DNA of 64,000 bases from a virus. Below, one piece after another: positions 17,441 through 49,337 of the stretch. The stretch lies in the IMG/VR virus record IMGVR_UViG_3300045988_129445; one strand, written 5' to 3'. The first letter of the stretch is position 1; the number at the start of each line of letters is the position of its first letter. Below the pieces are notes generated by a model. That model did not search any database and was not told the origin of the DNA. It worked only from the letters and a program-made list of their open reading frames with translations. Position numbers and translations under genes: made by a program.

Positions 17441-18391
17441 ATGGCTGCAACACAGTTTGAAGTTATTGAAACAGCAAACAATAATAACGCAGAAGAACCT
17501 GAAGCAAAGATCAAAAGACGTAAGGACGGAAATCCTAAATGGACTCGATCTAATAAACAAAAAGGCGTATCATCTTTAGTGTATCCAATTAAGAATAAAG
17601 AAAAATTTGCAGCCTTTAATGCATATTTTAGAGATCAGATTGATAAATCCTATACAGAGTACAAACGATATGTAGCTGCCAGAAATAATCTTTTGGTTGC
17701 AGTTGGGAACAATACCGCATATCGTATCTCTGATATTGTTAGACTTAAATGGAGCGACTTATTGGGAGACAAGACTCGTAAACAGGAAAAGAAAACAAAG
17801 AAATTCAGAACGGTATACTTTAACGATTTGGTAACTGAAGCAGTGGATATTTTCTTTGAAGCTGTTGCAGGAACTAAATATGATGTCAAGATTGATGGCG
17901 AAGTGTCAATGGATGATTATGTTTTTGGAACATGTAAGTCTGGATCAGGACACATGACTGAAGCAAATGCTTTGGATTTTGTTAAAAAAGGTGCTAAAGC
18001 AGTTGGAATTGAGGACAATATTGGTACACATACACTACGAAAGAACTTTGTGTATTGGACACTTGTTGATCATAAAGATGATCAGAACGTATTGTATACA
18101 CTTATGAGATTGTTGAATCATAGTAGCCCTGCAATGACGTTTTTATATGCTACAATTACAGAAGAGGAAACACATGTATTGTTCGATGATATTGCTCAGA
18201 CATACAAGGATATTATCAGCGGAGCATTTAATGGACTGAGGGAAAATGTTATTAACGTGAGCTATGATAGAGTAATGGAGATTATCAAGTGTGCTTATGA
18301 TGCAGGGAAAGATGATGCAGATAAAGATGATGGAGTGCATGAGGATAATATGCAAGCATTAAAAGAATTACTGGAAGGAGTTATTGTATGA
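17441..18391 (+). CDS. tyrosine-type site-specific recombinase/integrase (316 aa), catalytic residues present
   Basis: Box I NTAYRISDIVRLKWSDL, box II GTHTLRKNF, C-terminal LNHSSPAMTFLYA with the catalytic Tyr. Confidence 0.8.
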   Translation: MAATQFEVIETANNNNAEEPEAKIKRRKDGNPKWTRSNKQKGVSSLVYPIKNKEKFAAFNAYFRDQIDKSYTEYKRYVAARNNLLVAVGNNTAYRISDIVRLKWSDLLGDKTRKQEKKTKKFRTVYFNDLVTEAVDIFFEAVAGTKYDVKIDGEVSMDDYVFGTCKSGSGHMTEANALDFVKKGAKAVGIEDNIGTHTLRKNFVYWTLVDHKDDQNVLYTLMRLLNHSSPAMTFLYATITEEETHVLFDDIAQTYKDIISGAFNGLRENVINVSYDRVMEIIKCAYDAGKDDADKDDGVHEDNMQALKELLEGVIV

Positions 18392-27810: not shown

Positions 27811-28647
27811 ATGATTAGCATTGGTGATGTACCAGTTGTTCCAGTTGTTTTCCCAGATGGAACACAGAAAATTGATTTACAGTTAGAGGCGATGTATCGA
27901 GAGATTACAGAAAATAAGACAGTATATATTACGTGGCTATACGAATCAGACAAAGAGCTGTTTTCGTTATATTGTATTTCTAAAAATATTAGAGAGCATT
28001 TTCCACAATTACAACAAGATTTAATGATGCCATACATACCAAATGCAAGATTTGATAGGGTAAAATATTCAAACGAATGCTTTACTTTAAAATATTTTGC
28101 AGAAATCATTAATAGTCTGGGATTTGTAAGAGTAATTGTAACTGATCCGCATTCCGATGTATCTACTGCATTGATTAATCATGTAGAAGTAATCCGTGGA
28201 GCATCATATATCACACAAACTTGTAGCAAAATCCTTAAAGCAGAGCCATCAAGAAATCTCGTAATTTATTTCCCAGACAGTGGATCACTAAAAAGATATT
28301 CTGAATTTGTATCAGATGATTATCCGATTGTCTATGGAATTAAAAATCGTGATTGGAAGACAGGAAAAATTCTTGGTATTGAGATTCATGGAGATACAGA
28401 GAAATTAGATGAGAATACAGCAATTTTAATGATTGATGATATTTGTAGTAAGGGTGGCACATTCTACTACGGATCAAAAGAATTAAACAAATACGGTTGT
28501 AAAGATATGTATTTGTACGTTACTCACTGTGAAAACACAATTCTTGATGGCGAATTACTAAAGGAAGATAGTTTGTTTAAAAAAGTATTTACAACACGTA
28601 GTATCTTTACGAAAGAACATGAGAAAGTTGAGGTGTTAGATTTATGA
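27811..28647 (+). CDS. ribose-phosphate pyrophosphokinase (Prs) family enzyme; candidate ADPR-pyrophosphate synthetase (Adps-type), 278 aa
   Basis: MPYIPNARFDR (Prs: IPYYGYARQDR), RVIVTDPHSD (Prs: RVIALDLHAPQ), AILMIDDICSKGGT (Prs PRPP loop: AILIDDIIDTAGT), YVTHC. Confidence 0.7.
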   Translation: MISIGDVPVVPVVFPDGTQKIDLQLEAMYREITENKTVYITWLYESDKELFSLYCISKNIREHFPQLQQDLMMPYIPNARFDRVKYSNECFTLKYFAEIINSLGFVRVIVTDPHSDVSTALINHVEVIRGASYITQTCSKILKAEPSRNLVIYFPDSGSLKRYSEFVSDDYPIVYGIKNRDWKTGKILGIEIHGDTEKLDENTAILMIDDICSKGGTFYYGSKELNKYGCKDMYLYVTHCENTILDGELLKEDSLFKKVFTTRSIFTKEHEKVEVLDL

Positions 28648-30113
28648 AACAGACAAATCCAATGTTATTAATTGATTTTTATAAAGCAGTTCATGCTGAA
28701 ATGTTACCAAAAGGTATTACAAAATCTGTTTCTTATTTTACTCCACGTATGAGCAGAGTAAAACGATGGAATGAAGTAGCCATGTTTGGATTACAAGGAT
28801 TCATTAAAGAGTATTTGGTCGATTATTTTAATGAGTATTTTTTCTTTGAATATAGAAACAAAGCAATTGGTACTTATAAGACAGTAATGGATGCAGCTCT
28901 TGGAGAAGGTACATATGGATTACAGAAAATCGAAGATTTATATGATCTTGGCTATCTTCCAATTGAGATTAAGGCTCTTCCTGAAGGAACTTTAGTACCA
29001 ATGCATGTGCCGATGTTTAGTATTGAGAATACACATAAAGATTTTGCATGGTTACCACAGGCATTAGAAAGCTTAATTTCCGCAGAAATGTGGCATCCGA
29101 TGATCGCCGCAACTGTTGGACATACATACAGACAGATTGTTAATAAGTTCTATGATATGACTTGTGATGACGATATTCCAAAATCTAAAGCATTAGGGGC
29201 TTTCGATTTTCGTGGCGAAGAATGTTTACAGTCTGCGGTTAAAGCAGGGGCAGGATGGTGTTTATCATTCTTAAATACTGCAACAGTTCCAACAATTCCG
29301 TATTTAGAGAGAAATTATAACTGTGATTGCACAAAAGAACCAGTTGCTTTTGGTAGTCCGTCTACTGAGCATTCGGTTATGTGTAGTAATTATGCGATTG
29401 ACGGAGATGAAGAGACTCTAATCAAAAGATTACTAACAGAGATTTACCCAAATACAAGTTTTTCTGCGGTATTGGACTCATATGATTATTGGAATGTCGT
29501 AGAAAATATTCTTCCAAAGCTTAAAAATGAGATTATGAATCACAACGGATGTCTTCTTATCAGAGGGGACTCAGGAGATTGTGTAGACGTAGTAACCAGA
29601 ACGGTATTTAAGTTATGGGAAGAGTTTGGGGGAACAACAAACAGTAAAGGTTATAAAGTTTTAAATCCTCATGTAAAAGCAATTTATGGAGATTCAATTA
29701 CAGTGCAGAGATGTGAGCAGATTTATGACATCTTAGAGAAAAATGGATTCGCAGCCAGCAATGTTGCACTTGGTGTTGGATCATTCTCATTTCAGTGTAT
29801 CGAAGAGGATGGAGTTTTGAAACCATTTACAAGAGATACATTTAGTAGTTGTATCAAAGCAACATATTGTGAGATTGATGGCAGACCATATCCAATTTTT
29901 AAGAATCCAAAAGATGGCGGATTTAAGAAATCTCAGAGAGGTTTATGTCATGTCTATAAAGGATCAGACAGCAAACTGACATTTAAAGATGGATATACTT
30001 CAGAAAATCTTCCAATGAATAATTTGCTCGAAACGGTATTCAGAGATGGCAAATTAGTAAAAGAACAGTCATTGCAGGAGATTAGAAGAGTGTTAAACGA
30101 AGGAGAATTTTAA
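28644..30113 (+). CDS. type-II phosphoribosyltransferase of the NAMPT/NadV family; candidate nicotinamide ADPR transferase (Namat-type) or NadV, 489 aa
   Basis: N-terminal NPMLLIDFYKAVHAEMLP matches NAMPT/PncB (DSYK/DAYK); size matches; start overlaps the Prs-like stop (ATGA). Confidence 0.65.
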   Translation: MKQTNPMLLIDFYKAVHAEMLPKGITKSVSYFTPRMSRVKRWNEVAMFGLQGFIKEYLVDYFNEYFFFEYRNKAIGTYKTVMDAALGEGTYGLQKIEDLYDLGYLPIEIKALPEGTLVPMHVPMFSIENTHKDFAWLPQALESLISAEMWHPMIAATVGHTYRQIVNKFYDMTCDDDIPKSKALGAFDFRGEECLQSAVKAGAGWCLSFLNTATVPTIPYLERNYNCDCTKEPVAFGSPSTEHSVMCSNYAIDGDEETLIKRLLTEIYPNTSFSAVLDSYDYWNVVENILPKLKNEIMNHNGCLLIRGDSGDCVDVVTRTVFKLWEEFGGTTNSKGYKVLNPHVKAIYGDSITVQRCEQIYDILEKNGFAASNVALGVGSFSFQCIEEDGVLKPFTRDTFSSCIKATYCEIDGRPYPIFKNPKDGGFKKSQRGLCHVYKGSDSKLTFKDGYTSENLPMNNLLETVFRDGKLVKEQSLQEIRRVLNEGEF

Positions 30114-30130
30114 GAGAGGAGATATAAAAC

Positions 30131-30901
30131 ATGAGTTTTAATGCAGCAGAAACCAAAGACAGATTAGTGCAGTGGATCAGAGATTGGTTTGAAATTAATG
30201 GTAAAGGATGTAATGCCGTTGTAGGAATTTCAGGCGGTAAAGATTCGTCAGTGGTTGCAGCCTTATGCGTAGAAGCACTTGGCAAGAATCGAGTAATTGG
30301 AGTTATGATGCCACAGGGTGTGCAGTCAGATATTGAGTATGCTCAGATGCTATGTGATCATCTAGGAATTGAACATTACACAGTTAATATTTTTAATGCT
30401 TGCAGAGATATTAAACATGAAATCAGAGATGAATTAGGTGGTAAATGGAGTAAACAAAGTGCCACAAATTTACCTGCTCGTATCCGTATGGCTACATTAT
30501 ATGCTTTTGCACAGAGTATGAATGGAAGGGTAAGTTGTAATTGCAATTTATCCGAAGATTGGGTTGGATATGCGACTTATGGCGGAGATGGATTTGGATC
30601 ATTTGCTCCACTTGCCGATCTGACTGTGACAGAAGTTAAAGCAATTGGTAAAGTTCTGGGACTTCCAACAGAGTTAATCGAAAAAATTCCTACTGATGGG
30701 TTATGTGGTAAGACAGATGAAGATAATCTTGGATTTACATACGAAGTGTTGGATGAATATATCAGAACAGGTGAATGCAAGGATAAAGCAGTGAGACAGA
30801 TCATTGATGAAATGCATGAGAAGAATGTATTTAAACTTGCTCCAATGCCTAAATTTATATCTGGCATGTGGATCGAGGCAGGAATGGAGTTGGATGATTA
30901 A
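30131..30901 (+). CDS. nadE: NH3-dependent NAD+ synthetase (256 aa)
   Basis: PP-loop VVGISGGKDSSVVAAL and overall NadE-like length and composition. Confidence 0.8.
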   Translation: MSFNAAETKDRLVQWIRDWFEINGKGCNAVVGISGGKDSSVVAALCVEALGKNRVIGVMMPQGVQSDIEYAQMLCDHLGIEHYTVNIFNACRDIKHEIRDELGGKWSKQSATNLPARIRMATLYAFAQSMNGRVSCNCNLSEDWVGYATYGGDGFGSFAPLADLTVTEVKAIGKVLGLPTELIEKIPTDGLCGKTDEDNLGFTYEVLDEYIRTGECKDKAVRQIIDEMHEKNVFKLAPMPKFISGMWIEAGMELDD

Positions 30902-30903
30902 AT

Positions 30904-31236
30904 ATGGAAGTTAAAGCAAAATGGACAGGTCGTGGTTTTGCACTCTGTATTGGAGAATGGAAGCTTTATGTTGATGGCAAAGATGTTACCGATAAGATTC
31001 CAGAAGACTTACGCACAGAACCTATGAATACATATAAAAGATATGAGCGATGGTATTTCAAGGGTTGGGTTGAAGAATGGGAATCATATTATGATGGACT
31101 GAAGCAAGATGAATGGATTGAGTCTAATAAGTATTGGTTAGATGAAATTACAACAGATATTGATGTTCAGCGCCAGATCTTCAAAGCAATCAATGAAGAG
31201 GATTTTCGCACTAATTCTTGTGGCGGATGTATTTAA
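30904..31236 (+). CDS. hypothetical protein (110 aa)
   Basis: ORF immediately after nadE (TAAATATG). Confidence 0.5.
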   Translation: MEVKAKWTGRGFALCIGEWKLYVDGKDVTDKIPEDLRTEPMNTYKRYERWYFKGWVEEWESYYDGLKQDEWIESNKYWLDEITTDIDVQRQIFKAINEEDFRTNSCGGCI

Positions 31237-31301
31237 TAACAAGATTATGACATCTATATATGGTGTTGTGATAAATAAATTTTATAACAAAGGAGATATT
31301 T

Positions 31302-32729
31302 ATGATTGAAGTAATTGGAACAGTGGTACCAGTGGTTATTGCGGTAGGTGGCGTAGGAGCTATTATCGGTAGCGGTTATGTCAAAGCAAGTCCAGATAAA
31401 GCTTATATTATTTCTGGACTTAGAAAGACACCTAAGACATTAATTGGTAAGGCGGGGTTAAAAATCCCATTCTTTGAAAAAGCAGATCATCTTAATCTTG
31501 AGTTAATTCCAATTGATGTTAAGACATCAAGTTCTGTGCCTACAGCAGATTATATCAATATCAATGTAGATGCAGCGGTCAATGTAAAGGTTAGCAGTAA
31601 TCCAGAAAGATTAAAACTTGCAGCAGAAAACTTCTTAAATAAGCCAGTAGGCGATATTGGACAGGTCGCAAGAGAAGTCCTTGAAGGTAATATGCGAGAG
31701 ATTGTTGGAAAGATGAGTCTCGAAGAAATGGTTTCTGATCGTCAGAAATTTGCACAGCTTGTTACAGAAAATGCGAAGCCAGATCTTGCTGCAATGGGAT
31801 TAGATATTATCAGTTTTAATGTTCAGAATTTTATGGATGATAATGATGTTATTGAAAATCTTGGTGTAGATAATGTTGTTAAAATCAAGAAGAAGGCTGC
31901 GATTTCCAGAGCTGAAAGCGAAAGAGATATTGAAAAAGCAAAAGCAATGGCTGAAAAAGAAGCAAACGATGCAAAGGTAGAGTCAGCAACAGCGATTGCA
32001 GAAAAGAATAACAATCTGGAGATTAAAAAATCTGAGCTTGAAAAGATTTCAAAAGCAAAGAAAGCCGAGGCAGATGCAGCATACAAGATCCAGGAAGAAA
32101 AATCACGTAAAGAAATTGAAGTTGTAACTGCGGATGCTAATATTATGCGTCAGGAAAAGGAAATTGAACTGAAACGCAAAGACGTTGAGGTAACAGAGCA
32201 GACATTAGATGCACAGATCAAGAAGCAGGCAGAGGCTGAAAGATATGCTTCACAGCAGAAAGCAGATGCAGACTTATACAAGAAACAGAAAGAATCTGAA
32301 GCTAACAAATATGCTATGGAGCAGGAAGCTGAAGGTATTCGTGCAAAGGGTGTAGCAGAAGCCGAAGCAATCAAAGCCAAAGGTATTGCTGAAGCAGAAG
32401 CAATCGAAAAGAAAGCAGAAGCTATGAAACAGATGGGCAAAGCATCTATTGTAGAAATGATGTGTCAGATGTTCCCAGAAGCAGTTAAAAATGCAGCCGC
32501 ACCATTAGGAAATGTAGGAAGTATCACTATGTATGGAGAAGGAAACACAACAAAATTAACAAAAGATATTATGAATGTTGTGAATCAGGTATCAGATGGT
32601 GTTAAAGGATCTACAGGTGTTGATCTTGCAAAGATGTTAAAAGATTTTGTTTCTGAAGATAACGAAGTAGAATCTACAGATAATGTTGGTCAGCCAGAAG
32701 TATATTCAGACGATTATCGTGAGTTCTAA
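31302..32729 (+). CDS. flotillin-like SPFH/band-7 protein with N-terminal membrane anchor and Glu/Ala-rich repeat region (475 aa)
   Basis: N-terminal hydrophobic MIEVIGTVVPVVIAVGGVGAIIG; SPFH core (PDKAYIISGL...IPIDVKT...VDAAVNVKV); long KAxAxAEAEAI-type flotillin repeats. Confidence 0.75.
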   Translation: MIEVIGTVVPVVIAVGGVGAIIGSGYVKASPDKAYIISGLRKTPKTLIGKAGLKIPFFEKADHLNLELIPIDVKTSSSVPTADYININVDAAVNVKVSSNPERLKLAAENFLNKPVGDIGQVAREVLEGNMREIVGKMSLEEMVSDRQKFAQLVTENAKPDLAAMGLDIISFNVQNFMDDNDVIENLGVDNVVKIKKKAAISRAESERDIEKAKAMAEKEANDAKVESATAIAEKNNNLEIKKSELEKISKAKKAEADAAYKIQEEKSRKEIEVVTADANIMRQEKEIELKRKDVEVTEQTLDAQIKKQAEAERYASQQKADADLYKKQKESEANKYAMEQEAEGIRAKGVAEAEAIKAKGIAEAEAIEKKAEAMKQMGKASIVEMMCQMFPEAVKNAAAPLGNVGSITMYGEGNTTKLTKDIMNVVNQVSDGVKGSTGVDLAKMLKDFVSEDNEVESTDNVGQPEVYSDDYREF

Positions 32730-32743
32730 TAGGAGAAATTATT

Positions 32744-33478
32744 ATGACAATTATTATTATTTGTGTAATTATAGCGATTATCGCATATTTGCAATTTACT
32801 AAAAATGGAAAACAGATTAAAAATGTGGCATCTGGAACAGTCACAGAGAAAATCAAAGAAAATGCAATGACTCCAGAGGGAGCAAGAGCCAGATATAATA
32901 CTGCAATTAAAGACAAGCAGGACTTCTACCAGAAAACAATGGGTACATACACAATGGTAGCTGGTCGATTGGCAACAATGGAAGATGACCTCAAAGAAAC
33001 AAAAGAAGAAATTTCTAAAACCGAGGTAATGATCAACCAGTATCTTGATAATAATGATGATAAAAAAGCAATGTATTATGCTCAAAAATTAGCCACGTTA
33101 AAGGCACAGAAATCAGTGTACGAAAAGAAGATCCCAGAGTTACAAGCAACAAAAGATAAGCAAGAAGAAATTAAAAACCAAGCATATGATCAGCTTATTA
33201 AACTAAAAGGCGAAAAAGACACTGTAGTTCTCCAGATGGAGGCAGATCAGCAGATTGCAGAATTGCAGAAAAATTTAGATCAATACAATAGTTCAAATGC
33301 TGCTCAGGAAGGTTTGGAAGAGGTTCGAGAAGGAGCAAAGAAACTTAGCGAACAAGCCAAAGGCGTTGCTATTGCGTATGAATCTAGTGCAGAAACATTG
33401 GATTATCATATGGAGCAAGAAGAGCGACAGCAAGAAGCTAAAGCCATATTAGATCAGATGAAAAATGCTCGCAAATAA
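32744..33478 (+). CDS. membrane-anchored coiled-coil protein (244 aa); possibly PspA/IM30-like
   Basis: N-terminal transmembrane helix MTIIIICVIIAIIAYL, then extended heptad-rich coiled coil; the specific family is not established. Confidence 0.5.
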   Translation: MTIIIICVIIAIIAYLQFTKNGKQIKNVASGTVTEKIKENAMTPEGARARYNTAIKDKQDFYQKTMGTYTMVAGRLATMEDDLKETKEEISKTEVMINQYLDNNDDKKAMYYAQKLATLKAQKSVYEKKIPELQATKDKQEEIKNQAYDQLIKLKGEKDTVVLQMEADQQIAELQKNLDQYNSSNAAQEGLEEVREGAKKLSEQAKGVAIAYESSAETLDYHMEQEERQQEAKAILDQMKNARK

Positions 33479-33608
33479 CGGATAAATTCATCTACAAAAA
33501 TTAATTTCACAAACATAAAACTGGCATTTTATGACTCTATAAAACACAATATATAGTGATTATCCAATTATTGAACCACTATATATAGTTGTATAAAGTG
33601 CCAGTCAT

Positions 33609-33746
33609 GGAAACATAGCTCAGTTGGTAGAGCAGGCAATACATAAACATTCATTTTTCTACCTCCATATAAGTATTTTTATTTATTTACATTTAATTTT
33701 CATCACATATAAATTGCCGACACAGGTTCGATTCCTGTTGTTTCCA
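33609..33746 (+). tRNA. tRNA-like gene interrupted in the anticodon loop by about 67 nt (5' half 33609-33639, insert 33640-33713, 3' half 33714-33746)
   Basis: GGAAACA-TA-GCTC-AGTTGGTA-GAGC-A-GGCAA ... TTGCC-GAC-ACAGG-TTCGATT-CCTGT-TGTTTCC-A; acceptor, D and T arms all pair canonically; the anticodon stem GGCAA/TTGCC is separated by 74 nt. Confidence 0.4.
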
Positions 33747-33786
33747 CTAAAAAAGACCTCAACCTAAATGGTTAAAGTCTTTTTGG

Positions 33787-33990
33787 TTAATCGTTTGGTA
33801 TGACCTCGATAACATCTTCAACTTTGCAATCAAGATATAAGCAAATTTTGTCAATGTTTTCGAGACTGATATACTGATTCTTTGCCATCTTGGCAATTGT
33901 ACCAGACCCCATATTTAAAGCGGTTCGTAAATCAGATTTTGTCATACCCTTTTTCGCTAAAGTTACGAAAAGCGGTTTATAACTTATCAT
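33787..33990 (-). CDS. XRE-family HTH transcriptional regulator (Cro/CI-like), 67 aa; the only convincing minus-strand gene
   Basis: MISYKPLFVTLAKKGMTKSDLRTALNMGSGTIAKMAKNQYISLENIDKICLYLDCKVEDVIE is a classic HTH_3; GGAGGTATATCAT then ATG on the minus strand; the track ORF 33787..34053 extends upstream of this start. Confidence 0.75.
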   Translation of the reverse strand: MISYKPLFVTLAKKGMTKSDLRTALNMGSGTIAKMAKNQYISLENIDKICLYLDCKVEDVIEVIPND

Positions 33991-39766: not shown

Positions 39767-40720
39767 ATGAAATGTTTTTATCACGTTGATCAAGACGGGA
39801 TTGTGTCTGGGTTTTACGTTAGAAAAGCTTGCGAACAGCGAGGTTTAGCATTTGAACCAGAGGACTTCCGAAAAATTAATTACGGCATGAAATTCCCGTT
39901 TCATGACATTGAGCAGGATGAATTTGTGTTTATTGTAGACTACAGTATTGAGCCAGAAGAGATGTGGCAGTTGCTCAGTATTACAAAGAATGTATTTTGG
40001 ATCGACCATCATCAGTCTACGATTGAAGCGTATAAAGATTTCAAGTGTGATGTAAAAGGAATCAGAATTACTGGAGCGGGTATTTCAGGAGCGAATTTGA
40101 CATGGTTATATTTTAAATATATGTGTGATGAAAATTGGGAGCAAATTGAGAGGACGGATGAGAAAAATGTAAAAAGATTACTCAATATATATAAATATAA
40201 AGCAGATTATCCAAAACTGGCAGAATATACAGCCATGTGGGATACATTTTATTTTGGTGAAACGTCAAAACAATTCGTAAAAGCATTTCACTATGCATTT
40301 GAATCGTATGATTTTGATGCGTTAAGTCCATTGCTAAACACGTTAAATAAAGATCAAGGAATTTATGAAGCAGCAAAAATTATTGGTGATATGATAGCAG
40401 ATGGCTTATCAATTATTGAGTATTTAGCAGCAAATGCAGAACAATATCTTAGAGCATATGGTTTTGAAACCATATTTGAGGGACATAAAGTCTATGCAAT
40501 CAACAGAGCGTTAATCAATTCTGATTTCTTCGAATCTATTGATGCTTCTAAATACGATATGTTTATCGGTTTTTCATTCAATGGAAGTATGTGGGAATAT
40601 CAGCTACGATCCGCAGAACAAGATAAAGTAAATGTGTATGAGCTTGCTGTGAAATATGGTGGTGGCGGTCATCCAAATGCAGCTGGGTTCAGATGTGATA
40701 AATATGTATTAGGAGTGTGA
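39767..40720 (+). CDS. DHH-DHHA1 phosphoesterase (NrnA-like nanoRNase / pAp phosphatase family), 317 aa
   Basis: DHH motif I HVDQDGIVSG, motif III WIDHHQS, DHHA1 motif KYGGGGHPNAAGF. Confidence 0.7.
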   Translation: MKCFYHVDQDGIVSGFYVRKACEQRGLAFEPEDFRKINYGMKFPFHDIEQDEFVFIVDYSIEPEEMWQLLSITKNVFWIDHHQSTIEAYKDFKCDVKGIRITGAGISGANLTWLYFKYMCDENWEQIERTDEKNVKRLLNIYKYKADYPKLAEYTAMWDTFYFGETSKQFVKAFHYAFESYDFDALSPLLNTLNKDQGIYEAAKIIGDMIADGLSIIEYLAANAEQYLRAYGFETIFEGHKVYAINRALINSDFFESIDASKYDMFIGFSFNGSMWEYQLRSAEQDKVNVYELAVKYGGGGHPNAAGFRCDKYVLGV

Positions 40721-40723
40721 TGT

Positions 40724-41527
40724 ATGTCAAGGAAAAATACAAGAGAAATTGAACTTGCTTTTAGTAAAAACAGAGATCCAGATTGGGAAGCCGATGTGGA
40801 AATTTATAGAAGAAGAAAGTTCGAAGTAGTGCGTGGTATTTGTCTGGGAGATGAGTTTGCTGAAATTGAGTCTTTAGAATACAAAAATTGTGACGAGTTA
40901 GATGAAATGTATTATCGTTTTGATTATAATTTAAAAATACTTATGAAGTCTTATTTGTATGAATATACAGATTATGTGCCAATCGAAACAATGCATATTA
41001 CATCTCCTGCAATATTGTGTTGTGATGAAATTGTATTAAAAAACGGTGAGAAAATTTCTATTGATAACATATGTATTGATAAATCAAATGGCAATGAAGT
41101 TTATAAATTATATTCTAATAGTACATATACAGATGATGTATATTATGAATCTACTAAAGCATTAGTTTATGAATTGGCTAGTAAAGATGTTTGCAAGGCT
41201 ATACATATAATGAAAGATATGATGGACAAAGCGTATATAAAAGCAAGAAATGAACGAAGCATACATCCTTTTATTAGCCACTTGTTTAACGACCCTCCAA
41301 TTCCATGTATTAAAAATAAATATTCTATACATGATTTAGTAATGGGTACATTAAAATGCAGTGGTGATATTTATAAAGAAATAAACAAAGAAGTCCCAAA
41401 TGCTATAGATATGATTGTGCCTCATCCTGGAAGACATGCAGAGTATTATTTTGGGTTAGATTATACAGATGAAGTAGAGCAATTTATTAAAGAACAGGAG
41501 GCTAAGAAATGTGAAGAAACTAAATGA
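40724..41527 (+). CDS. hypothetical protein (267 aa)
   Basis: GGAGTGTGATGTATG context. Confidence 0.5.
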   Translation: MSRKNTREIELAFSKNRDPDWEADVEIYRRRKFEVVRGICLGDEFAEIESLEYKNCDELDEMYYRFDYNLKILMKSYLYEYTDYVPIETMHITSPAILCCDEIVLKNGEKISIDNICIDKSNGNEVYKLYSNSTYTDDVYYESTKALVYELASKDVCKAIHIMKDMMDKAYIKARNERSIHPFISHLFNDPPIPCIKNKYSIHDLVMGTLKCSGDIYKEINKEVPNAIDMIVPHPGRHAEYYFGLDYTDEVEQFIKEQEAKKCEETK

Positions 41528-42062
41528 TGAACAGCGAAAGCTGATTGAAGATAATTATTCTTTGATTTGGCATTTGCATGAGAAGTATTTTACAAAATTT
41601 AAAGATTTTGATACATATATGGATCTTGGTCGTATGGCAATTTGCAAAGCAGCATTAAAATGGGATGAGTCTAAAGGTAATTTTGGGACGTATTTTAGAT
41701 GGGTATTACAGTCAGAAATTAATAAATATTATATAAAATGGCATAGCCCAACAGAGAAAATGAACAGAAATGCGGAATCATTGGATGCACCTGTTGACGA
41801 AAGAGTTGACGCAGAAGAATTAACAATTGGTAGTTTGCTTGTGAGTAACGATGACATAGAGAGTCAAGCATTAACAACAGTATATTATCAAGGAGAATTT
41901 AACAAATTGTCAGACAAGCAGAAGAAAATTATATATATGTTACTTGATGATATTGAACATAAATACATAGCCAAAGAATTTGGAAAGAGTATTCAATGGG
42001 TAAGTTGGCAACTTGGTAATATTAAAAAAATAATGCATAGGGCAAAGGCGGTGAGATCATGA
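41511..42062 (+). CDS. sigma-70-family sigma factor, small TcdR/UviA-like type (183 aa, GTG start)
   Basis: Region 2: DLGRMAICKAALKWDESKGNFGTYFRWVLQSEINKY; region 4 HTH: YIAKEFGKSIQWVSWQLGNIKKIM; AGGAGG ribosome-binding site. Confidence 0.75.
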   Translation: MKKLNDEQRKLIEDNYSLIWHLHEKYFTKFKDFDTYMDLGRMAICKAALKWDESKGNFGTYFRWVLQSEINKYYIKWHSPTEKMNRNAESLDAPVDERVDAEELTIGSLLVSNDDIESQALTTVYYQGEFNKLSDKQKKIIYMLLDDIEHKYIAKEFGKSIQWVSWQLGNIKKIMHRAKAVRS

Positions 42063-42880
42063 CAATTGAAGAAGTGAAAGATTACATAAACTCGTCTACA
42101 GAGTATGATTTTTTGCGAGATTATCCTCATAAAATCGCTTTTCTCACACTAGGTGGAAGTTATGCTTACGGAACAAATACAGAGGATTCTGACATTGATT
42201 TACGTGGTGTTTTCCTTAGTGATAAAAGAGAGATTTTGTTGAATAATAATCAGAACAATCTTGAGAAGACCGATGATCATAAAGACATTGATACCGTGTT
42301 ACATTCGCATATTAAGATGGTTAATATGCTTGCTAAGGGCAATCCTACATTTTTAGAGTTGCTATACTTTGCACCAGACCGCTATTTGTATGTATCCGAT
42401 ATTGGTATGGAGTTGATCAAAAATAGAGATATGTTCTTATCTAAGAGAGTTTGTCATGCATATAAAGGATATATTTGTGATTGCCTAGAACAAGCATACG
42501 TGAGATGTTCTAAATCAGACGACATTCAAAAGAAAACAAAATTTGCCAATAAATCAATGATGCATGCTGTTCGTTTGTTGCTCCAAGTGATTCAATTACT
42601 ACAATGTGGAACTATGTGTGGAACAATTGAAGAAATAGGAAAAGACCTTATAGATATTAAGATGGGGTACAATACTTTGTGTGAAAAGAGACATCTTCCA
42701 GATGGCACTGAATGTACGGATTATCGTCCAAACGAATCTTATAATGTGTTTACTAACAGACTATTGTCTGAATTTGAGTATGGGTACAAACATACAACCT
42801 TGCCAGACGAACCAGACTGGGATCGTATCAATAACTTCTTGATGACAACAAATGAACGAATTGTGAGAGGAATGGTGTAA
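42059..42880 (+). CDS. Pol-beta-superfamily nucleotidyltransferase with C-terminal helical domain (273 aa)
   Basis: LTLGGSYAYGTNTEDSDIDLRGVF is the GS-x9-13-DxD nucleotidyltransferase signature; start overlaps the sigma-gene stop. Confidence 0.65.
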   Translation: MTIEEVKDYINSSTEYDFLRDYPHKIAFLTLGGSYAYGTNTEDSDIDLRGVFLSDKREILLNNNQNNLEKTDDHKDIDTVLHSHIKMVNMLAKGNPTFLELLYFAPDRYLYVSDIGMELIKNRDMFLSKRVCHAYKGYICDCLEQAYVRCSKSDDIQKKTKFANKSMMHAVRLLLQVIQLLQCGTMCGTIEEIGKDLIDIKMGYNTLCEKRHLPDGTECTDYRPNESYNVFTNRLLSEFEYGYKHTTLPDEPDWDRINNFLMTTNERIVRGMV

Positions 42881-48797: not shown

Positions 48798-49337
48798 ATG
48801 TCGTTGAAATTAAATGACGAACAGAGAAAATTAGTAGAACAAAATCATAATTTGATTTACTCTGCTATGACAAAATGCGGTATCCGCAGACAAGATTTTG
48901 ATGACTATTATGGATTCGCTGCCATTGGGTTGTGTAAGGCAGCAATTGATTATGATGAATCCAAAGCTAAATCATTCTCTACATATGCATATAAATGTAT
49001 GCAAAAAGAAATTATAGCATATACTCGATGGAGATTTGCAGATAAAAGAGATGAACGACTTACCTTATCGTACAATCAGTTAATGAATGATTTAGATGAA
49101 GACGAAAAAGAATATTCTTTTTTGCTATCTGATAAAAAAAATAATGAAAAAAAATTAATTTTCTTTTTGTGTTTTGATGAACAAATGCGAATACTAAATA
49201 ATAAGGACAGGTTAATTATTAATTTAAAGGCAAAAGGGTATACGAACGAAGAAATAGGAAATACCATTGGTGTTACATATCAAGCAATTCAATATCAATT
49301 GAAAAAAATTAAAAATAAATTAATCCCATCCTTATAA
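48798..49337 (+). CDS. sigma-70-family sigma factor, TcdR/UviA-like (179 aa); paralog of the 41511 gene
   Basis: N-terminal LNDEQRKLVEQNHNLIY compared with LNDEQRKLIEDNYSLIW in the paralog; region 2 AIGLCKAAIDYDESKAKSFSTYAYKCMQKEI; region 4 YTNEEIGNTIGVTYQAIQYQLKKIKNKL. Confidence 0.7.
   Translation: MSLKLNDEQRKLVEQNHNLIYSAMTKCGIRRQDFDDYYGFAAIGLCKAAIDYDESKAKSFSTYAYKCMQKEIIAYTRWRFADKRDERLTLSYNQLMNDLDEDEKEYSFLLSDKKNNEKKLIFFLCFDEQMRILNNKDRLIINLKAKGYTNEEIGNTIGVTYQAIQYQLKKIKNKLIPSL

What the first reader, a model, noticed from the sequence alone, without database searches (positions are those of the whole stretch)
33609..33746. tRNA-like gene split in the anticodon loop by a ~67-nt AT-rich insert, with an antisense ribosome-binding site and mini-ORF
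A canonical acceptor stem (GGAAACA/TGTTTCC), U8-A9, D-arm GCTC-AGTTGGTA-GAGC and T-arm ACAGG-TTCGATT-CCTGT are all present. The 5-bp anticodon stem GGCAA/TTGCC, however, encloses 74 nt instead of 7, and the variable region is only 3 nt (GAC). The insert is far too short for a group I intron, which is the only intron type established in bacterial tRNA genes. The insert carries ACCTCC; on the opposite strand this forms a strong GGAGGT Shine-Dalgarno followed by ATG and a 28-codon ORF that runs antisense through the tRNA 5' half. Possible explanations: a tRNA with a novel small intervening element, a disrupted tRNA serving as an att-like core (it abuts the XRE repressor gene), or a tRNA-like regulatory RNA.
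Basis: seen in the sequence. Interest (0 to 1): 0.65.

Follow-up and report, generated by a model that had tools for sequence, protein, structure and literature searches.

The report
Phage tRNA-shaped RNA with replaced anticodon arm
A family of large human-gut phages carries a conserved gene for a tRNA-shaped RNA. Where the anticodon loop should be, there is a fast-changing, unstructured A/U-rich stretch, so it is probably a tRNA mimic rather than a working or intron-split tRNA.

Summary
**Observation:** correct. Window 33609-33746 (+) holds a full tRNA cloverleaf (Rfam tRNA 46.4 bits). The 5-bp stem GGCAA/TTGCC encloses 74 nt, and the variable region is 3 nt.

**Not chance or decay:**
- All 80 complete alleles anchored outside the element keep the split form.
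- Two more distant relatives have the same architecture with unrelated inserts of 154 and 167 nt.
- Across 21 distinct cores, 98.2% of pair cells are paired and 7 of 21 pairs show compensatory double changes (0 of 500 shuffles).
- The tertiary 15:48 pair also covaries.

**The insert:**
- It is the least constrained part of the locus. It has no significant fold and no Rfam family.
- It is not related to the IscB transposon ends.
- Its CCUCC motif mutates freely.
- No anticodon is conserved between homologues.
- The antisense mini-ORF is frameshifted in about a quarter of alleles.
- The att-site and pseudogene readings are rejected.

**Best reading (inferred):** a non-decoding tRNA mimic matured by RNase P and RNase Z, working through its tRNA-shaped core. 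The anticodon arm has become a tolerated expansion. A spliced tRNA using an unknown mechanism is not excluded (about 0.1).

**Closest precedent:** the unexplained "enigmatic introns" of Lak megaphage tRNAs.

The parts
33520..33605 (+). Leader hairpin directly upstream of the tRNA-like gene. Its arms are ACTGGCAT (33520-27) and (G)TGCCAGT (33598-605). In this window the loop carries a ~72-nt A/T-rich palindromic insertion, which contains the weak promoter-like TTGAAC (33571-76) and TATAAA (33592-97).
   Evidence: Inverted repeats I1 and I4. About half of the relatives, and all long-insert relatives, have the short form ACTGGCAT-loop-ATGCCAGT placed 3-4 nt before G1. On the minus strand the hairpin is followed by TTTTAT, so it looks like a terminator for leftward transcription. 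The promoter match is weak (8/12) and was not listed.
33609..33639 (+). 5' half of the tRNA-shaped core: acceptor strand (33609-15), U8-A9, D-arm (33618-33), A26, and the 5' strand of the anticodon-type stem GGCAA (33635-39).
   Evidence: Rfam tRNA match at 46.4 bits. Compensatory changes occur at pairs 5-68, 6-67, 11-24, 13-22, 27-43, 28-42 and 29-41. G18, G19, A14, A21 and U8 are invariant. U at position -1 is conserved.
33640..33713 (+). 74-nt A/U-rich insert that takes the place of the anticodon loop. There are two possible ways to read a loop out of it. TACATAA (33640-46) gives anticodon CAU but A33 in place of U33. T33640 plus TATAAA (33708-13) gives anticodon AUA.
   Evidence: The insert has no fold of its own (z = -0.84) and no Rfam family. 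It is present in 80/80 complete alleles, with lengths varying through indels. Relatives have unrelated inserts of 154 or 167 nt. Its CCTCC motif (33662-66) is hit by three independent C>T changes.
33714..33746 (+). 3' half of the core: stem strand TTGCC (33714-18), 3-nt variable region GAC (33719-21), T-arm (33722-38), acceptor strand (33739-45), and discriminator A73 (33746). No CCA is encoded; CTA follows.
   Evidence: Position 48 (33721) covaries with position 15 (33623). The T-loop TTCGAT(T/C) is conserved in all types.
33750..33786 (.). Bidirectional terminator-like hairpin, AAAAAGACCTCAACC / GGTTAAAGTCTTTTT. It is shared with the convergent XRE gene.
   Evidence: Inverted repeat I5, 87% complementary. 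It is 85-91% identical even in the distant relatives. It was used as the outside anchor for unbiased allele retrieval. The terminator scan did not list it.
33787..33990 (-). Convergent 67-aa XRE / Cro-C1-type HTH regulator gene. It is the constant neighbour of the element in every relative found.
   Evidence: Pfam HTH_26, E = 1.4e-14. Homologues at 68-77% identity sit beside homologous long-insert elements.
33568..33654 (-). Antisense 28-codon mini-ORF with the SD GGAGGT (complement of 33661-66). Judged not to be a gene.
   Evidence: The reading frame is broken or shifted in roughly a quarter of the 40 distinct alleles, giving three different frames. The SD motif is mutated in several alleles.

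Best explanation
**What it is.** This is a real, selectively maintained gene for a tRNA-shaped RNA. It occurs in a family of roughly 140-170-kb phages from the human gut.

**Origin.** Its core most resembles tRNAs of the Ile(GAU) / CAU type that share the acceptor stem GGAAACA/TGTTTCC-A.

**What is kept.** The parts that build the L-shaped body are kept by compensatory evolution:
- the acceptor, D and T arms
- the first three pairs of the anticodon stem
- the elbow nucleotides
- the 15:48 tertiary pair

**What is lost.** Everything distal to the anticodon stem has been replaced by an unstructured, fast-evolving A/U-rich extension. It is 74 nt here and 154-167 nt in relatives.

**Inferred mechanism.**
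- The RNA is transcribed with the upstream rightward operon. In this window it may also use a weak promoter of its own, carried by an insertion in the leader hairpin.
- RNase P cuts the 5' end after the conserved U(-1).
- The 3' end is set by RNase Z and CCA addition, or by the terminator.
- The RNA does not decode. It acts through its tRNA-shaped core.
- The most likely role is a processing or stability module that releases the upstream mRNA ending in the conserved hairpin. A decoy for tRNA-binding factors is an alternative.
- The insert is a tolerated expansion.

**Shown:** the structure, its conservation, the variability of the insert, and the lack of a conserved anticodon.

**Inferred:** transcription, processing by tRNA enzymes, and the biological role.
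For: **Cloverleaf detected**
- Rfam tRNA match at 46.4 bits.

**The split form is fixed**
- All 80 complete alleles anchored on the terminator outside the element are interrupted. They come from the 53 viral and 31 human-gut metagenome loci that the anchor matched, and they give 26 distinct sequences.

**Distant relatives share the architecture**
- Relatives were reached through XRE homologues of 68-77% identity.
- They have the same leader hairpin, core and terminator, but inserts of 154 or 167 nt.

**Covariation in the core**
- 98.2% of pair cells are paired.
- 7 of 21 pairs show double compensatory changes. None of 500 shuffles reaches this, and the slid controls give 0-3.
- The 15:48 pair is G:C in 16 cores and A:U in 4. 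The A:U state arose twice, and one A:C intermediate exists.
- Within the window type, pair-preserving transitions in stems outnumber disruptive ones, 7-9 against 1. The flanking DNA has a symmetric spectrum, 109 against 111.

**The insert is unconstrained**
- It has no fold.
- Its similarity to the long inserts is at chance level.
- Insert identity between types is 37-43%. The flanks are 68-89% identical.
- Between L244 and L245 the insert diverges like intergenic DNA, 76% against 77%.

**No conserved anticodon**
- Intron-mode ARAGORN gives different answers for the homologues.
- The 5' end of the insert varies between alleles, including CAT to CGT and several indels.

**Origin of the core**
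- Normal-length tRNAs with the same acceptor stem are Ile-GAU (58) and CAU type (39).
- The CAU type is nearly identical to the window core outside the anticodon arm.

**Processing signals (read from the sequence)**
- U(-1), G1:C72 and A73 are conserved, and no CCA is encoded. By established knowledge of bacterial tRNA maturation, this fits RNase P and RNase Z.
Against: - There are no expression or processing data.
- Only three sequence types exist, so the compensatory changes rest on few independent lineages.
- I built the core alignment with the cloverleaf in mind, which biases it towards that structure.
- The specific role is pure inference.
- A terminator hairpin already lies downstream, so an extra processing site is not obviously needed.
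- The insert is as conserved as the neighbouring genes within the window-type clade: 0.23 events per nt against 0.20-0.31. A sequence-specific role within each clade cannot be excluded.
- The 3' end of the insert (CACATATAAA) is invariant in the 26 distinct anchor-retrieved alleles. It could supply a canonical loop, U-U-AUA-A-A, if 67 nt were removed.
- One relative (L021) carries an IscB transposon inside the gene. Disruption may therefore be tolerated.
Confidence: 0.55

Rival explanations
1. It is a working tRNA whose gene carries a new kind of small intervening sequence. The insert would be removed by an unknown mechanism that is neither group I nor bulge-helix-bulge, leaving a decoding tRNA. 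One candidate product has the loop U-U-AUA-A-A. Another has anticodon CAU.
For: - ARAGORN in intron mode produces a canonical 72-nt cloverleaf after removing 67 nt at position 32/33.
- The 3' side of the insert that would supply this loop is invariant in the 26 distinct anchor-retrieved alleles.
- A fast-evolving insert inside a conserved body is how introns behave.
- Lak megaphages have oversized tRNAs with conserved "enigmatic introns" (PMC6784885).
- The window encodes an RlaP-family nucleotidyltransferase (Pfam "RNA repair pathway DNA polymerase beta family") and a DHH phosphoesterase.
Against: - Predicted anticodons differ between homologues: Tyr-AUA, none, Val-UAC.
- An AUA anticodon on an Ile/Met-like class I body is not a known bacterial tRNA.
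- The CAU reading has A33 instead of the near-universal U33, and it mutates to CGU or shifts by indels in natural alleles.
- The variable region is 3 nt in all types.
- In the long types only three anticodon-stem pairs are kept.
- No group I or ribozyme family is detected.
- No helix links the insert to the loop, as a bulge-helix-bulge motif would need.
- No RNA ligase or splicing endonuclease was seen among the 40 window proteins scanned.
Confidence: 0.12
2. It is a small regulatory RNA displayed on a tRNA scaffold. The A/U-rich insert would be the effector, for example through antisense pairing of its pyrimidine-rich CCUCC / CCUUCC stretch with ribosome-binding sites such as that of the adjacent XRE gene. 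The core would only provide stability and processing.
For: - The sense RNA carries CAUUUUUCUACCUCC, a perfect complement of an SD plus AUG.
- The insert shares 20 of 28 nt with the antisense of the XRE ribosome-binding region (repeat D1).
- The long inserts carry UUACCUUCCUUCAUU or UUACAUUCCUUCAUU.
- The element is always linked to the XRE gene.
Against: - Predicted pairing with the XRE start region ranks only 6th of 88 gene starts, z about -1.7.
- Matches to the 15-mer in the window are at chance level: 7 found, 4.4 expected.
- CCTCC is hit by three independent C>T changes.
- The insert sequence is not conserved between types.
Confidence: 0.15
3. It is a dead tRNA gene, or a recombination or attachment relic. 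On this view a tRNA was inactivated by an insertion (a mobile-element remnant or att duplication) and persists only because the phages are closely related.
For: - The anticodon loop is destroyed.
- The ~85 window-type copies are more than 95% alike, so conservation within that set alone is weak evidence.
- An IscB/HEARO transposon sits at the same site in L021.
- The window has an integrase-family gene.
Against: - Seven compensatory pairs and the covarying 15:48 tertiary pair span the insert.
- Stem substitutions are biased towards pair-preserving changes against a symmetric background.
- The insert is not similar to the IscB element ends: a fraction of 0.24-0.40 of shuffled inserts score at least as well.
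- The element lies inside the genome with the same flanks in all contigs.
- The integrase gene is 16 kb away.
Confidence: 0.04
4. The functional product is on the minus strand. It would be a small peptide (the 28-codon ORF behind GGAGGT, perhaps a type I toxin) or an antisense transcript ending at the leader hairpin, which looks like a leftward terminator.
For: - A strong SD with ideal spacing to ATG is kept in most alleles.
- The leader hairpin is followed by TTTTAT on the minus strand.
- The long types encode a 12-codon ORF, MNWQFSIIFT.., on the minus strand. This was read from the sequences.
Against: - The peptide is not conserved. Three frames occur, giving products of 8-35+ aa among window-type alleles.
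- The SD is mutated in several alleles.
- In the long types the SD-like motif is ~20 nt from the ATG.
- No promoter-like site was listed on the minus strand inside the insert.
- This reading cannot explain the compensatory changes that preserve the plus-strand cloverleaf and its tertiary pair.
Confidence: 0.04

Closest known systems
Oversized tRNA genes with "enigmatic introns" in Lak megaphages (Devoto et al. 2019, PMC6784885; bioRxiv 10.1101/356790)
   Same: Both are gut-phage tRNA genes that bacterial tRNA finders miss because a short non-group-I insert sits in the anticodon region. In both, the insert is nearly identical among related phages from different people, and the mechanism is unknown.
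   Different: The Lak cases were read as introns of identifiable tRNAs (Phe, Gly, Thr, Tyr), and some alleles lack the insert. Here no allele lacks it (80/80), no anticodon is conserved between homologues, the variable region is 3 nt, and the insert is swapped for unrelated sequence in relatives. The phage and probable host group also differ: this is a Bacillota-like ~160-kb phage, whereas the Lak phages are 540-kb Prevotella phages.
Canonical bacterial or phage tRNA-Ile(GAU) and tRNA(CAU), Rfam RF00005
   Same: The acceptor stem GGAAACA/TGTTTCC-A is the same. The D-arm and T-arm are near-identical to the CAU-type phage or prophage tRNAs. All the universal tertiary nucleotides are present.
   Different: There is no 7-nt anticodon loop. 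The variable region is 3 nt rather than 5. The anticodon stem is unrelated in sequence.
tRNA-like processing elements such as MALAT1 mascRNA, and the mitochondrial tRNA punctuation model (from general knowledge)
   Same: In both, a tRNA-shaped module at the end of a longer transcript recruits RNase P and RNase Z through its acceptor/T-arm and elbow, while the anticodon arm is degenerate. The upstream RNA is left with a protective 3' structure. Here that would be the conserved hairpin 3-4 nt before G1.
   Different: Those are eukaryotic or organellar systems. No cleavage has been shown here. mascRNA has a shortened anticodon arm, not a greatly expanded one.
tmRNA tRNA-like domain
   Same: The topology is the same: 5' acceptor strand, D region, a long internal insertion, T-arm, 3' acceptor strand.
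   Different: The element has A3-U70, not the G3:U70 alanine identity pair. It has a true D-stem. It has no pseudoknots or conserved tag reading frame. Neither ARAGORN nor Rfam gives a tmRNA match; the only Rfam hit is 12.9 bits at E = 1.5.
T4 RNAC / RNAD (small stable RNAs from the T4 tRNA gene region)
   Same: Both are phage-encoded small RNAs linked to tRNA genes. The roles of RNAC and RNAD are still unknown (PMC3014915; PMC9697503). From memory, RNAC is of similar size, ~140 nt.
   Different: I found no sequence or structural relationship and did not test one. The T4 RNAs lie inside a tRNA cluster, whereas this window has no other tRNA.

Membership tests
Decoding tRNA (Rfam RF00005) | Cloverleaf with four helices, supported by covariation | tested here: met
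   46.4 bits against a gathering score of 29. 98.2% of cells are paired and 7 pairs are compensatory.
Decoding tRNA (Rfam RF00005) | Universal tertiary nucleotides (U8, A14, G18G19, A21, T-loop TTCRA, G53:C61, R15:Y48) | tested here: met
   All are present and conserved. The 15:48 pair covaries, G:C to A:U.
Decoding tRNA (Rfam RF00005) | 7-nt anticodon loop with U33 and R37, and an anticodon conserved among orthologues | tested here: not met
   The loop is 74-167 nt. Intron-mode predictions give Tyr-AUA, none and Val-UAC for the homologues. The CAU reading has A33 and varies between alleles.
Decoding tRNA (Rfam RF00005) | Variable region of 4-5 nt, or a long arm | tested here: not met
   It is 3 nt (GAC or TAT) in all 21 distinct cores.
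Group I intron in a bacterial tRNA gene | Intron of about 200 nt or more with the conserved P3-P8 catalytic core; an Rfam Intron_gpI match | tested here: not met
   The insert is 67-74 nt with no fold (z = -0.84). No group I hit appears at the gathering score or at E <= 10, nor in the long forms at E <= 1.
Archaeal/eukaryal bulge-helix-bulge tRNA intron | Two 3-nt bulges around a 4-bp helix formed by the anticodon-loop region and the intron, plus a splicing endonuclease and ligase in the cell | tested here: not met
   Neither the minimum-energy nor the centroid structure contains such a helix. No endonuclease or ligase was found among the 40 window proteins scanned. Host enzymes cannot be tested here.
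Lak-type phage tRNA with an "enigmatic intron" | Oversized phage tRNA gene with a short unclassifiable insert in the anticodon region, conserved among related phages | tested here: met
   description in PMC6784885. This is a descriptive category, not a mechanistic family.
Lak-type phage tRNA with an "enigmatic intron" | An identifiable isotype and anticodon after removal, and alleles without the insert | tested here: not met
   No consistent anticodon. None of the 80 alleles is uninterrupted. No intact bacterial tRNA has this 5' half.
tmRNA | G3:U70, a tag-peptide reading frame, pseudoknots, and a match to tmRNA models | tested here: not met
   A3-U70. ARAGORN finds no tmRNA. The only Rfam hit is tmRNA_permuted at 12.9 bits, E = 1.5. 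No plus-strand reading frame is conserved, because indels fall in the 5' part of the insert.
Phage attP or prophage att site in a tRNA gene | A partial tRNA copy (usually the 3' part) next to an integrase; halves that are independent fragments at element ends | tested here: not met
   Both halves are always present and co-evolve. The element is internal to contigs of 100-200 kb. The integrase-family gene is at 17441-18391, 16 kb away.
IS200/IS605-type IscB (HEARO) element remnant | Similarity to the element's left end (GTGAACTACCC...) or right end (...CTGAATATTTATAAA), with their hairpins | tested here: not met
   Local alignment of the insert to either end is at chance level: a fraction of 0.24 and 0.40 of shuffles score at least as well. 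No HEARO match occurs in the window.
Small protein gene or type I toxin on the antisense strand | A reading frame conserved among relatives | tested here: not met
   Three frames and early stops occur in roughly a quarter of the 40 distinct alleles.

The most novel reading that the evidence does not exclude
The insert is a genuinely new class of small intervening sequence in phage tRNA genes. It would be removed by a mechanism that is neither self-splicing group I nor bulge-helix-bulge endonuclease. One example would be cleavage in the exposed A/U-rich loop followed by phage- or host-mediated RNA repair and ligation, producing a working tRNA during infection. If so, the "enigmatic introns" of Lak and other large gut phages would belong to the same unrecognised RNA-processing pathway in bacteria.
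Probability: 0.1. Interest if true: 0.9.

Novelty: new variant of a known kind. Interest (0 to 1): 0.6.

Why it matters
**A blind spot in annotation.** Standard annotation misses this RNA. ARAGORN in default mode finds nothing, and Rfam misses the long-insert homologues entirely. Yet covariation shows that it is under selection in a widespread family of human-gut phages.

**A testable case for an open observation.** Oversized phage tRNA genes with unexplained inserts have been known since the Lak megaphage work and remain unexplained. Here natural variation separates the two parts of such a gene. The tRNA-shaped body is what selection keeps, while the insert is replaceable.

**What either outcome would mean.**
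- If the RNA is a mimic, phages use tRNA shape for something other than decoding, such as processing, stability or decoy functions.
- If it is spliced, bacteria or their phages have an undescribed tRNA splicing route.

Either outcome can be settled with a northern blot or with junction-spanning reads.

Tried and rejected
1. **Decayed IscB/HEARO transposon ends.**
   - This lead came from L021, where a full HEARO RNA (98.9 bits) and an IscB ORF follow GGCAATAC.
   - Rejected because the insert's similarity to the element ends is at chance level.
   - Other IscB copies have unrelated flanks and all end in ...TATAAA. The window sequence GGCAATAC|ATAAAC therefore looks like the empty target site.
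2. **Antisense regulator with a specific target.**
   - The 15-mer search was at chance level.
   - In RNAduplex ranking of 88 gene starts, the XRE start came 6th.
   - An earlier whole-window duplex scan timed out.
3. **Uninterrupted allele or parental host tRNA.**
   - None was found in viral contigs or metagenome contigs.
   - The bacterial species genomes gave only one truncated fragment, in a Dysgonomonas MAG.
4. **Insert as a mobile or repeated sequence.** It occurs only inside this element and is not repeated in the window.
5. **Cultured relatives.** There was no DNA match in GenBank phages in near or distant mode. The best protein relatives of the PolIII-alpha gene are ~33% identical, from Bacillota phages.
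6. **Weak Rfam hits.** A permissive scan gave only noise besides tRNA.
7. **More distant relatives through XRE homologues of 47-63% identity.** The contexts were unrelated and lacked the element.
8. **Splicing or repair enzymes in the window.** Only an RlaP-family nucleotidyltransferase and a DHH phosphoesterase were found.
9. **A conserved fold in the long inserts.** The folds are weak, z = -1.6 and -1.8, with one possible 8-bp long-range helix.
10. **Automatic alignment of whole elements.** MAFFT mis-registered the 5' halves, so I used a structure-guided core alignment instead.
Full report
**1.

- acceptor GGAAACA (33609-15) / TGTTTCC (33739-45), with A73 at 33746
- U8-A9
- D-arm GCTC-AGTTGGTA-GAGC
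- T-arm ACAGG-TTCGATT-CCTGT
- a 5-bp stem GGCAA/TTGCC that encloses 74 nt (33640-33713) instead of 7
- a 3-nt variable region, GAC

The Rfam tRNA model matches 33609-33746 over its full length at 46.4 bits (gathering score 29, E about 1e-6 for the window), with the insert treated as an 81-nt insertion. ARAGORN in default mode calls no tRNA in the whole 64-kb window. With its intron option it calls this element with a 67-nt intron.

The whole element folds as the cloverleaf (z = -2.97). The insert alone has no fold beyond chance (z = -0.84).

**2. Context**

The window is part of an uncultured, low-GC (about 33%) phage-like genome with almost all genes on the plus strand.

Genes identified:
- PolIII-alpha, RecJ, RecD2 and a Toprim-domain protein (possible primase)
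- two phage sigma factors
- NAD-salvage genes
- flotillin and PspA-like proteins
- an RlaP-family nucleotidyltransferase
- an integrase-family gene, 16 kb from the element

Nothing in GenBank phages matches at the DNA level. The best protein relatives, at about 33% identity, are phages of Bacillota.

The element lies at the end of a rightward gene string. It is convergent with a 67-aa Cro/C1-type HTH (XRE) gene at 33787-33990 on the minus strand. A bidirectional terminator-like hairpin (33750-33784) separates the two.

A hairpin lies directly upstream, with arms ACTGGCAT (33520-27) and TGCCAGT (33599-605), three nucleotides before G1. In this window its loop contains a ~72-nt palindromic A/T-rich insertion. 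About half of the relatives lack that insertion.

The sigma-70-type promoter seen by eye inside that insertion is weak. It matches 8 of 12 positions at proper spacing and was not listed by the scan. The short-hairpin alleles have no such promoter, so co-transcription with the upstream genes is the more general expectation. This is inference.

**3. The split form is fixed in nature**

Exact-pattern scans with either half found about 55 viral contigs, most of them 80-170 kb. The two halves always lay 99-103 nt apart.

To avoid selecting on the element itself, I anchored on the terminator outside it.
- The anchor matched 53 viral and 31 human-gut metagenome loci (85 copies counting the window).
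- These gave 80 complete alleles, all interrupted, 137-145 nt long, in 26 distinct sequences.
- No uninterrupted allele or alternative insert turned up.
- The insert motif occurs nowhere else in the viral collection.
- No bacterial species genome has this 5' half in an intact tRNA.

**4. Deeper relatives settle whether it is functional**

The roughly 85 window-type copies are more than 95% alike, so their conservation alone says little.

Homologues of the adjacent XRE protein at 68-77% identity led to syntenic contigs. These contigs have the same module:
- the leader hairpin ACTGGCAT-TTTATT-ATGCCAGT, then (C)CAT
- an acceptor and D-arm
- a long A/U-rich stretch
- the identical T-arm and an acceptor 3' strand
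- A73, CTAAAAAAG and the terminator

The stems differ in a compensatory way:
- The acceptor is GGAAGTA/TACTTCC instead of GGAAACA/TGTTTCC.
- The D-stem is GTTC/GAAC, GTTT/GAAC or GTTT/AAAC instead of GCTC/GAGC.
- The base of the anticodon stem is GAC/GTC or AGT/ACT instead of GGC/GCC.

The inserts are 154 nt and 167 nt.

I aligned 21 distinct cores, with the insert trimmed to 3 + 4 nt. On that alignment:
- The cloverleaf has 98.2% of cells paired.
- 7 of 21 pairs carry changes on both sides.
- None of 500 shuffles reaches this, and structures slid by 1-3 columns give 0-3 such pairs.

The tertiary Levitt pair covaries as well. It is G15:C48 in 16 cores and A15:U48 in 4. The A:U state arose separately in the long types and in one window-type allele (L210). 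One allele shows an A:C intermediate.

Within the window type, transitions in the stems are nearly all of the pair-preserving kind, 7-9 against 1. The flanking DNA shows a symmetric spectrum: C>T plus A>G total 109, and G>A plus T>C total 111. My binomial estimate is p of about 0.01-0.04.

Caveats:
- There are only three sequence types.
- I built the core alignment with the cloverleaf in mind.

Even so, the pseudogene and att-fragment readings cannot explain co-evolution between positions on opposite sides of the insert.

**5. The insert is the unconstrained part**

- The window insert is no more similar to the long inserts than shuffled sequence is.
- Between types the insert is 37-43% identical. 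The XRE gene is 68-71%, the next intergenic region 72-77% and the terminator 85-89%.
- Between the two long types it diverges like intergenic DNA, 76% against 77%.
- The long inserts fold only weakly, z = -1.6 and -1.8.
- Rfam detects nothing in the long forms, not even tRNA.
- Within the window type, indels and substitutions cluster at the 5' end of the insert. Examples are an extra A or G after GGCAA, CAT to CGT, and AAAC to AAC.
- The CCTCC motif is hit by three independent C>T changes.

**6. Is it a tRNA with an intron?**

Two mature loops can be imagined.
- The first is U-A-CAU-A-A, with the insert after position 37/38. This has A33 instead of U33, and it is altered in several natural alleles.
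- The second is U-U-AUA-A-A, with the insert at 32/33. This is ARAGORN's choice.

For the homologues, intron-mode ARAGORN gives Tyr-AUA at a different position, no gene, or Val-UAC. No anticodon is therefore conserved.

Other points against an intron:
- The variable region is 3 nt in all types.
- In the long types only three anticodon-stem pairs are kept.
- There is no group I signature, and 67-74 nt is too short for one.
- No helix exists that could form a bulge-helix-bulge motif.
- No ligase or endonuclease was recognised among the 40 window proteins scanned.

I rate a spliced, decoding tRNA at about 0.1. It is not excluded, because the 3' end of the insert is invariant and because introns also evolve fast.

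**7. Origin of the core**

- ARAGORN types them mainly as Ile-GAU (58) and CAU type (39).
- The commonest CAU type is GGAAACATAGTTCAGTTGGTTAGAGCA...CACAGGTTCGAATCCTGTTGTTTCCA.
- It differs from the window core by one substitution and one indel in the 5' part, and by one substitution in the T-loop.
- Its anticodon arm and variable region are unrelated to those of the window element.

The body therefore descends from, or has recombined with, an Ile/Met-type tRNA.

**8. The antisense features**

The minus-strand GGAGGT-N7-ATG is real. The ORF behind it falls into three different frames, with early stops in roughly a quarter of the 40 distinct alleles. The SD is mutated in several alleles. It is not a conserved coding gene.

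On the sense RNA the same bases form an anti-SD-like stretch. No gene start in the window stands out as a target:
- The 15-mer matches are at chance level.
- The XRE start region ranks 6th of 88 in predicted duplex energy.

**9. Most likely mechanism (inferred)**

RNase P, RNase Z and the CCA-adding enzyme recognise specific features of a tRNA body. The features kept here are the following:
- the coaxial acceptor/T-arm helix
- the D/T elbow (G18, G19, T-loop, 15:48)
- U(-1), G1:C72 and A73
- the absence of an encoded CCA

This statement about enzyme recognition rests on established knowledge of bacterial tRNA maturation.

The part those enzymes ignore, the anticodon arm, is the part that has been allowed to expand and drift. 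I therefore take the RNA to be a non-decoding tRNA mimic that is matured like a tRNA and acts through its core.

The most concrete proposal is a processing and stability module. On this view, RNase P cleavage at G33609 would release the upstream operon mRNA ending in the conserved hairpin. This resembles how the mascRNA element defines the 3' end of MALAT1, and it resembles tRNA punctuation in mitochondria.

A decoy for tRNA-binding host factors, or a scaffold for an effector insert, are alternatives.

My confidence estimates:
- the structural claim (a selected tRNA-shaped RNA): about 0.9
- non-decoding: about 0.75
- the processing-module role specifically: about 0.3

**10. Comparison with what is known, and novelty**

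The closest published observation is the set of oversized tRNAs with "enigmatic", highly conserved introns in Lak megaphages. Their mechanism is unknown, and I found no later work that resolves them.

This element fits that description but differs in three ways:
- It has no insert-free alleles.
- It has no conserved anticodon.
- Its insert is swapped for unrelated sequence between relatives.

It shares topology with the tRNA-like domain of tmRNA but fails every tmRNA criterion.

T4 RNAC and RNAD are a loose precedent for phage small RNAs linked to tRNA genes with unknown roles.

I classify it as a new variant of a known, unexplained kind. Interest is moderate to high. It is invisible to routine annotation, clearly under selection, common in human-gut phages, and directly testable.

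**11. Other observations**

In one relative (L021) a complete IscB/HEARO element is inserted between the bases that correspond to 33642 and 33643. There the 5' half of the tRNA-like gene sits where the omega-RNA guide would be.

Other gut-phage loci in hand also contain oversized tRNA-like genes with different inserts. The phenomenon is therefore broader than this one family.

Noticed in passing
L021 (minus strand) 1261-1, same contig as L056; corresponds to window 33642|33643: One relative carries a full IscB transposon inside the tRNA-like gene. A HEARO / omega-RNA (Rfam 98.9 bits) starts 3 nt after GGCAA, followed by an ORF with PLMP, RuvC, RRxRR and HNH motifs. The bases that would serve as the omega-RNA guide are therefore the D-arm and anticodon-stem bases of the tRNA-like gene. 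The contig ends inside iscB, so the right junction is unknown. Ten related elements in other phages have unrelated left flanks. The eight with an intact IscB ORF all end in ...TATAAA or ...CATAAA. The window sequence GGCAATAC|ATAAAC thus looks like the empty target with an ATAAA motif.
   Followed up: partly
window 33528-33598: The loop of the leader hairpin holds a ~72-nt A/T-rich insertion. It contains two operator-like palindromes, ACAATATATAGTG and CACTATATATAGTTG, spaced 32 bp apart, and a weak promoter-like pair of hexamers. About half of the related phages have it and the rest lack it. The locus therefore has two hairpin loops that each acquired a ~70-nt A/T-rich insertion.
   Followed up: partly
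L065 5179-5296, 5306-5412, 9785-9921 (also L235, L238): A different IscB-bearing gut phage has a tRNA array in which several units are oversized. Their inserts share a "hairpin + ACAGCAAU" motif, and that motif also recurs outside tRNAs in the same locus. One unit has the same acceptor stem, GGAAACA/TGTTTCC-A, as the window element. Intron-mode ARAGORN calls that unit Phe-GAA with a 44-nt intron.
   Followed up: partly
L078 4002-4122 (minus; Dysgonomonas MAG), L196, L236, L069: Further oversized tRNA-like genes (105-170 nt) with unrelated inserts in the anticodon region. Some of these inserts are GC-richer and look structured (L196, L236). This suggests that interrupted or expanded tRNA-like genes are recurrent in phage and gut sequences.
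   Followed up: no
window 27811-33478, and L245 / L248 upstream genes: The rightward genes that end at the element include a ribose-phosphate-pyrophosphokinase-like ORF (identified by eye, no Pfam hit), NAMPT/NAPRTase, NAD synthase, flotillin/Band_7 and a PspA/IM30-like protein. Relatives additionally have TerD, vWA-TerF-like and a P-type ATPase. This is an unusual membrane-stress and NAD-salvage cassette for a phage.
   Followed up: no
window 42059-42880, 39767-40720, 41511-42062, 48798-49337, 17441-18391: The window encodes an RlaP-family nucleotidyltransferase (Pfam "RNA repair pathway DNA polymerase beta family") with no recognisable RNA ligase next to it. It also encodes a DHH phosphoesterase, two phage sigma factors and a tyrosine-recombinase-family protein.
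   Followed up: partly
L060 1260-1328 and 3174-3246: Two Pistol self-cleaving ribozyme matches (63.9 and 57.2 bits) in an IscB-bearing viral contig.
   Followed up: no
L023 / L052 (both ends of contig IMGVR_UViG_3300045988_110343); L203, L204, L222: Several assemblies break inside or at the edge of the element. One 100-kb contig has its two ends at ...CATCACA and TATAAATTGCC..., which are adjacent bases within the insert. This is probably an arbitrary cut of a circular assembly, or a polymorphism such as an IscB insertion. I did not examine it.
   Followed up: no
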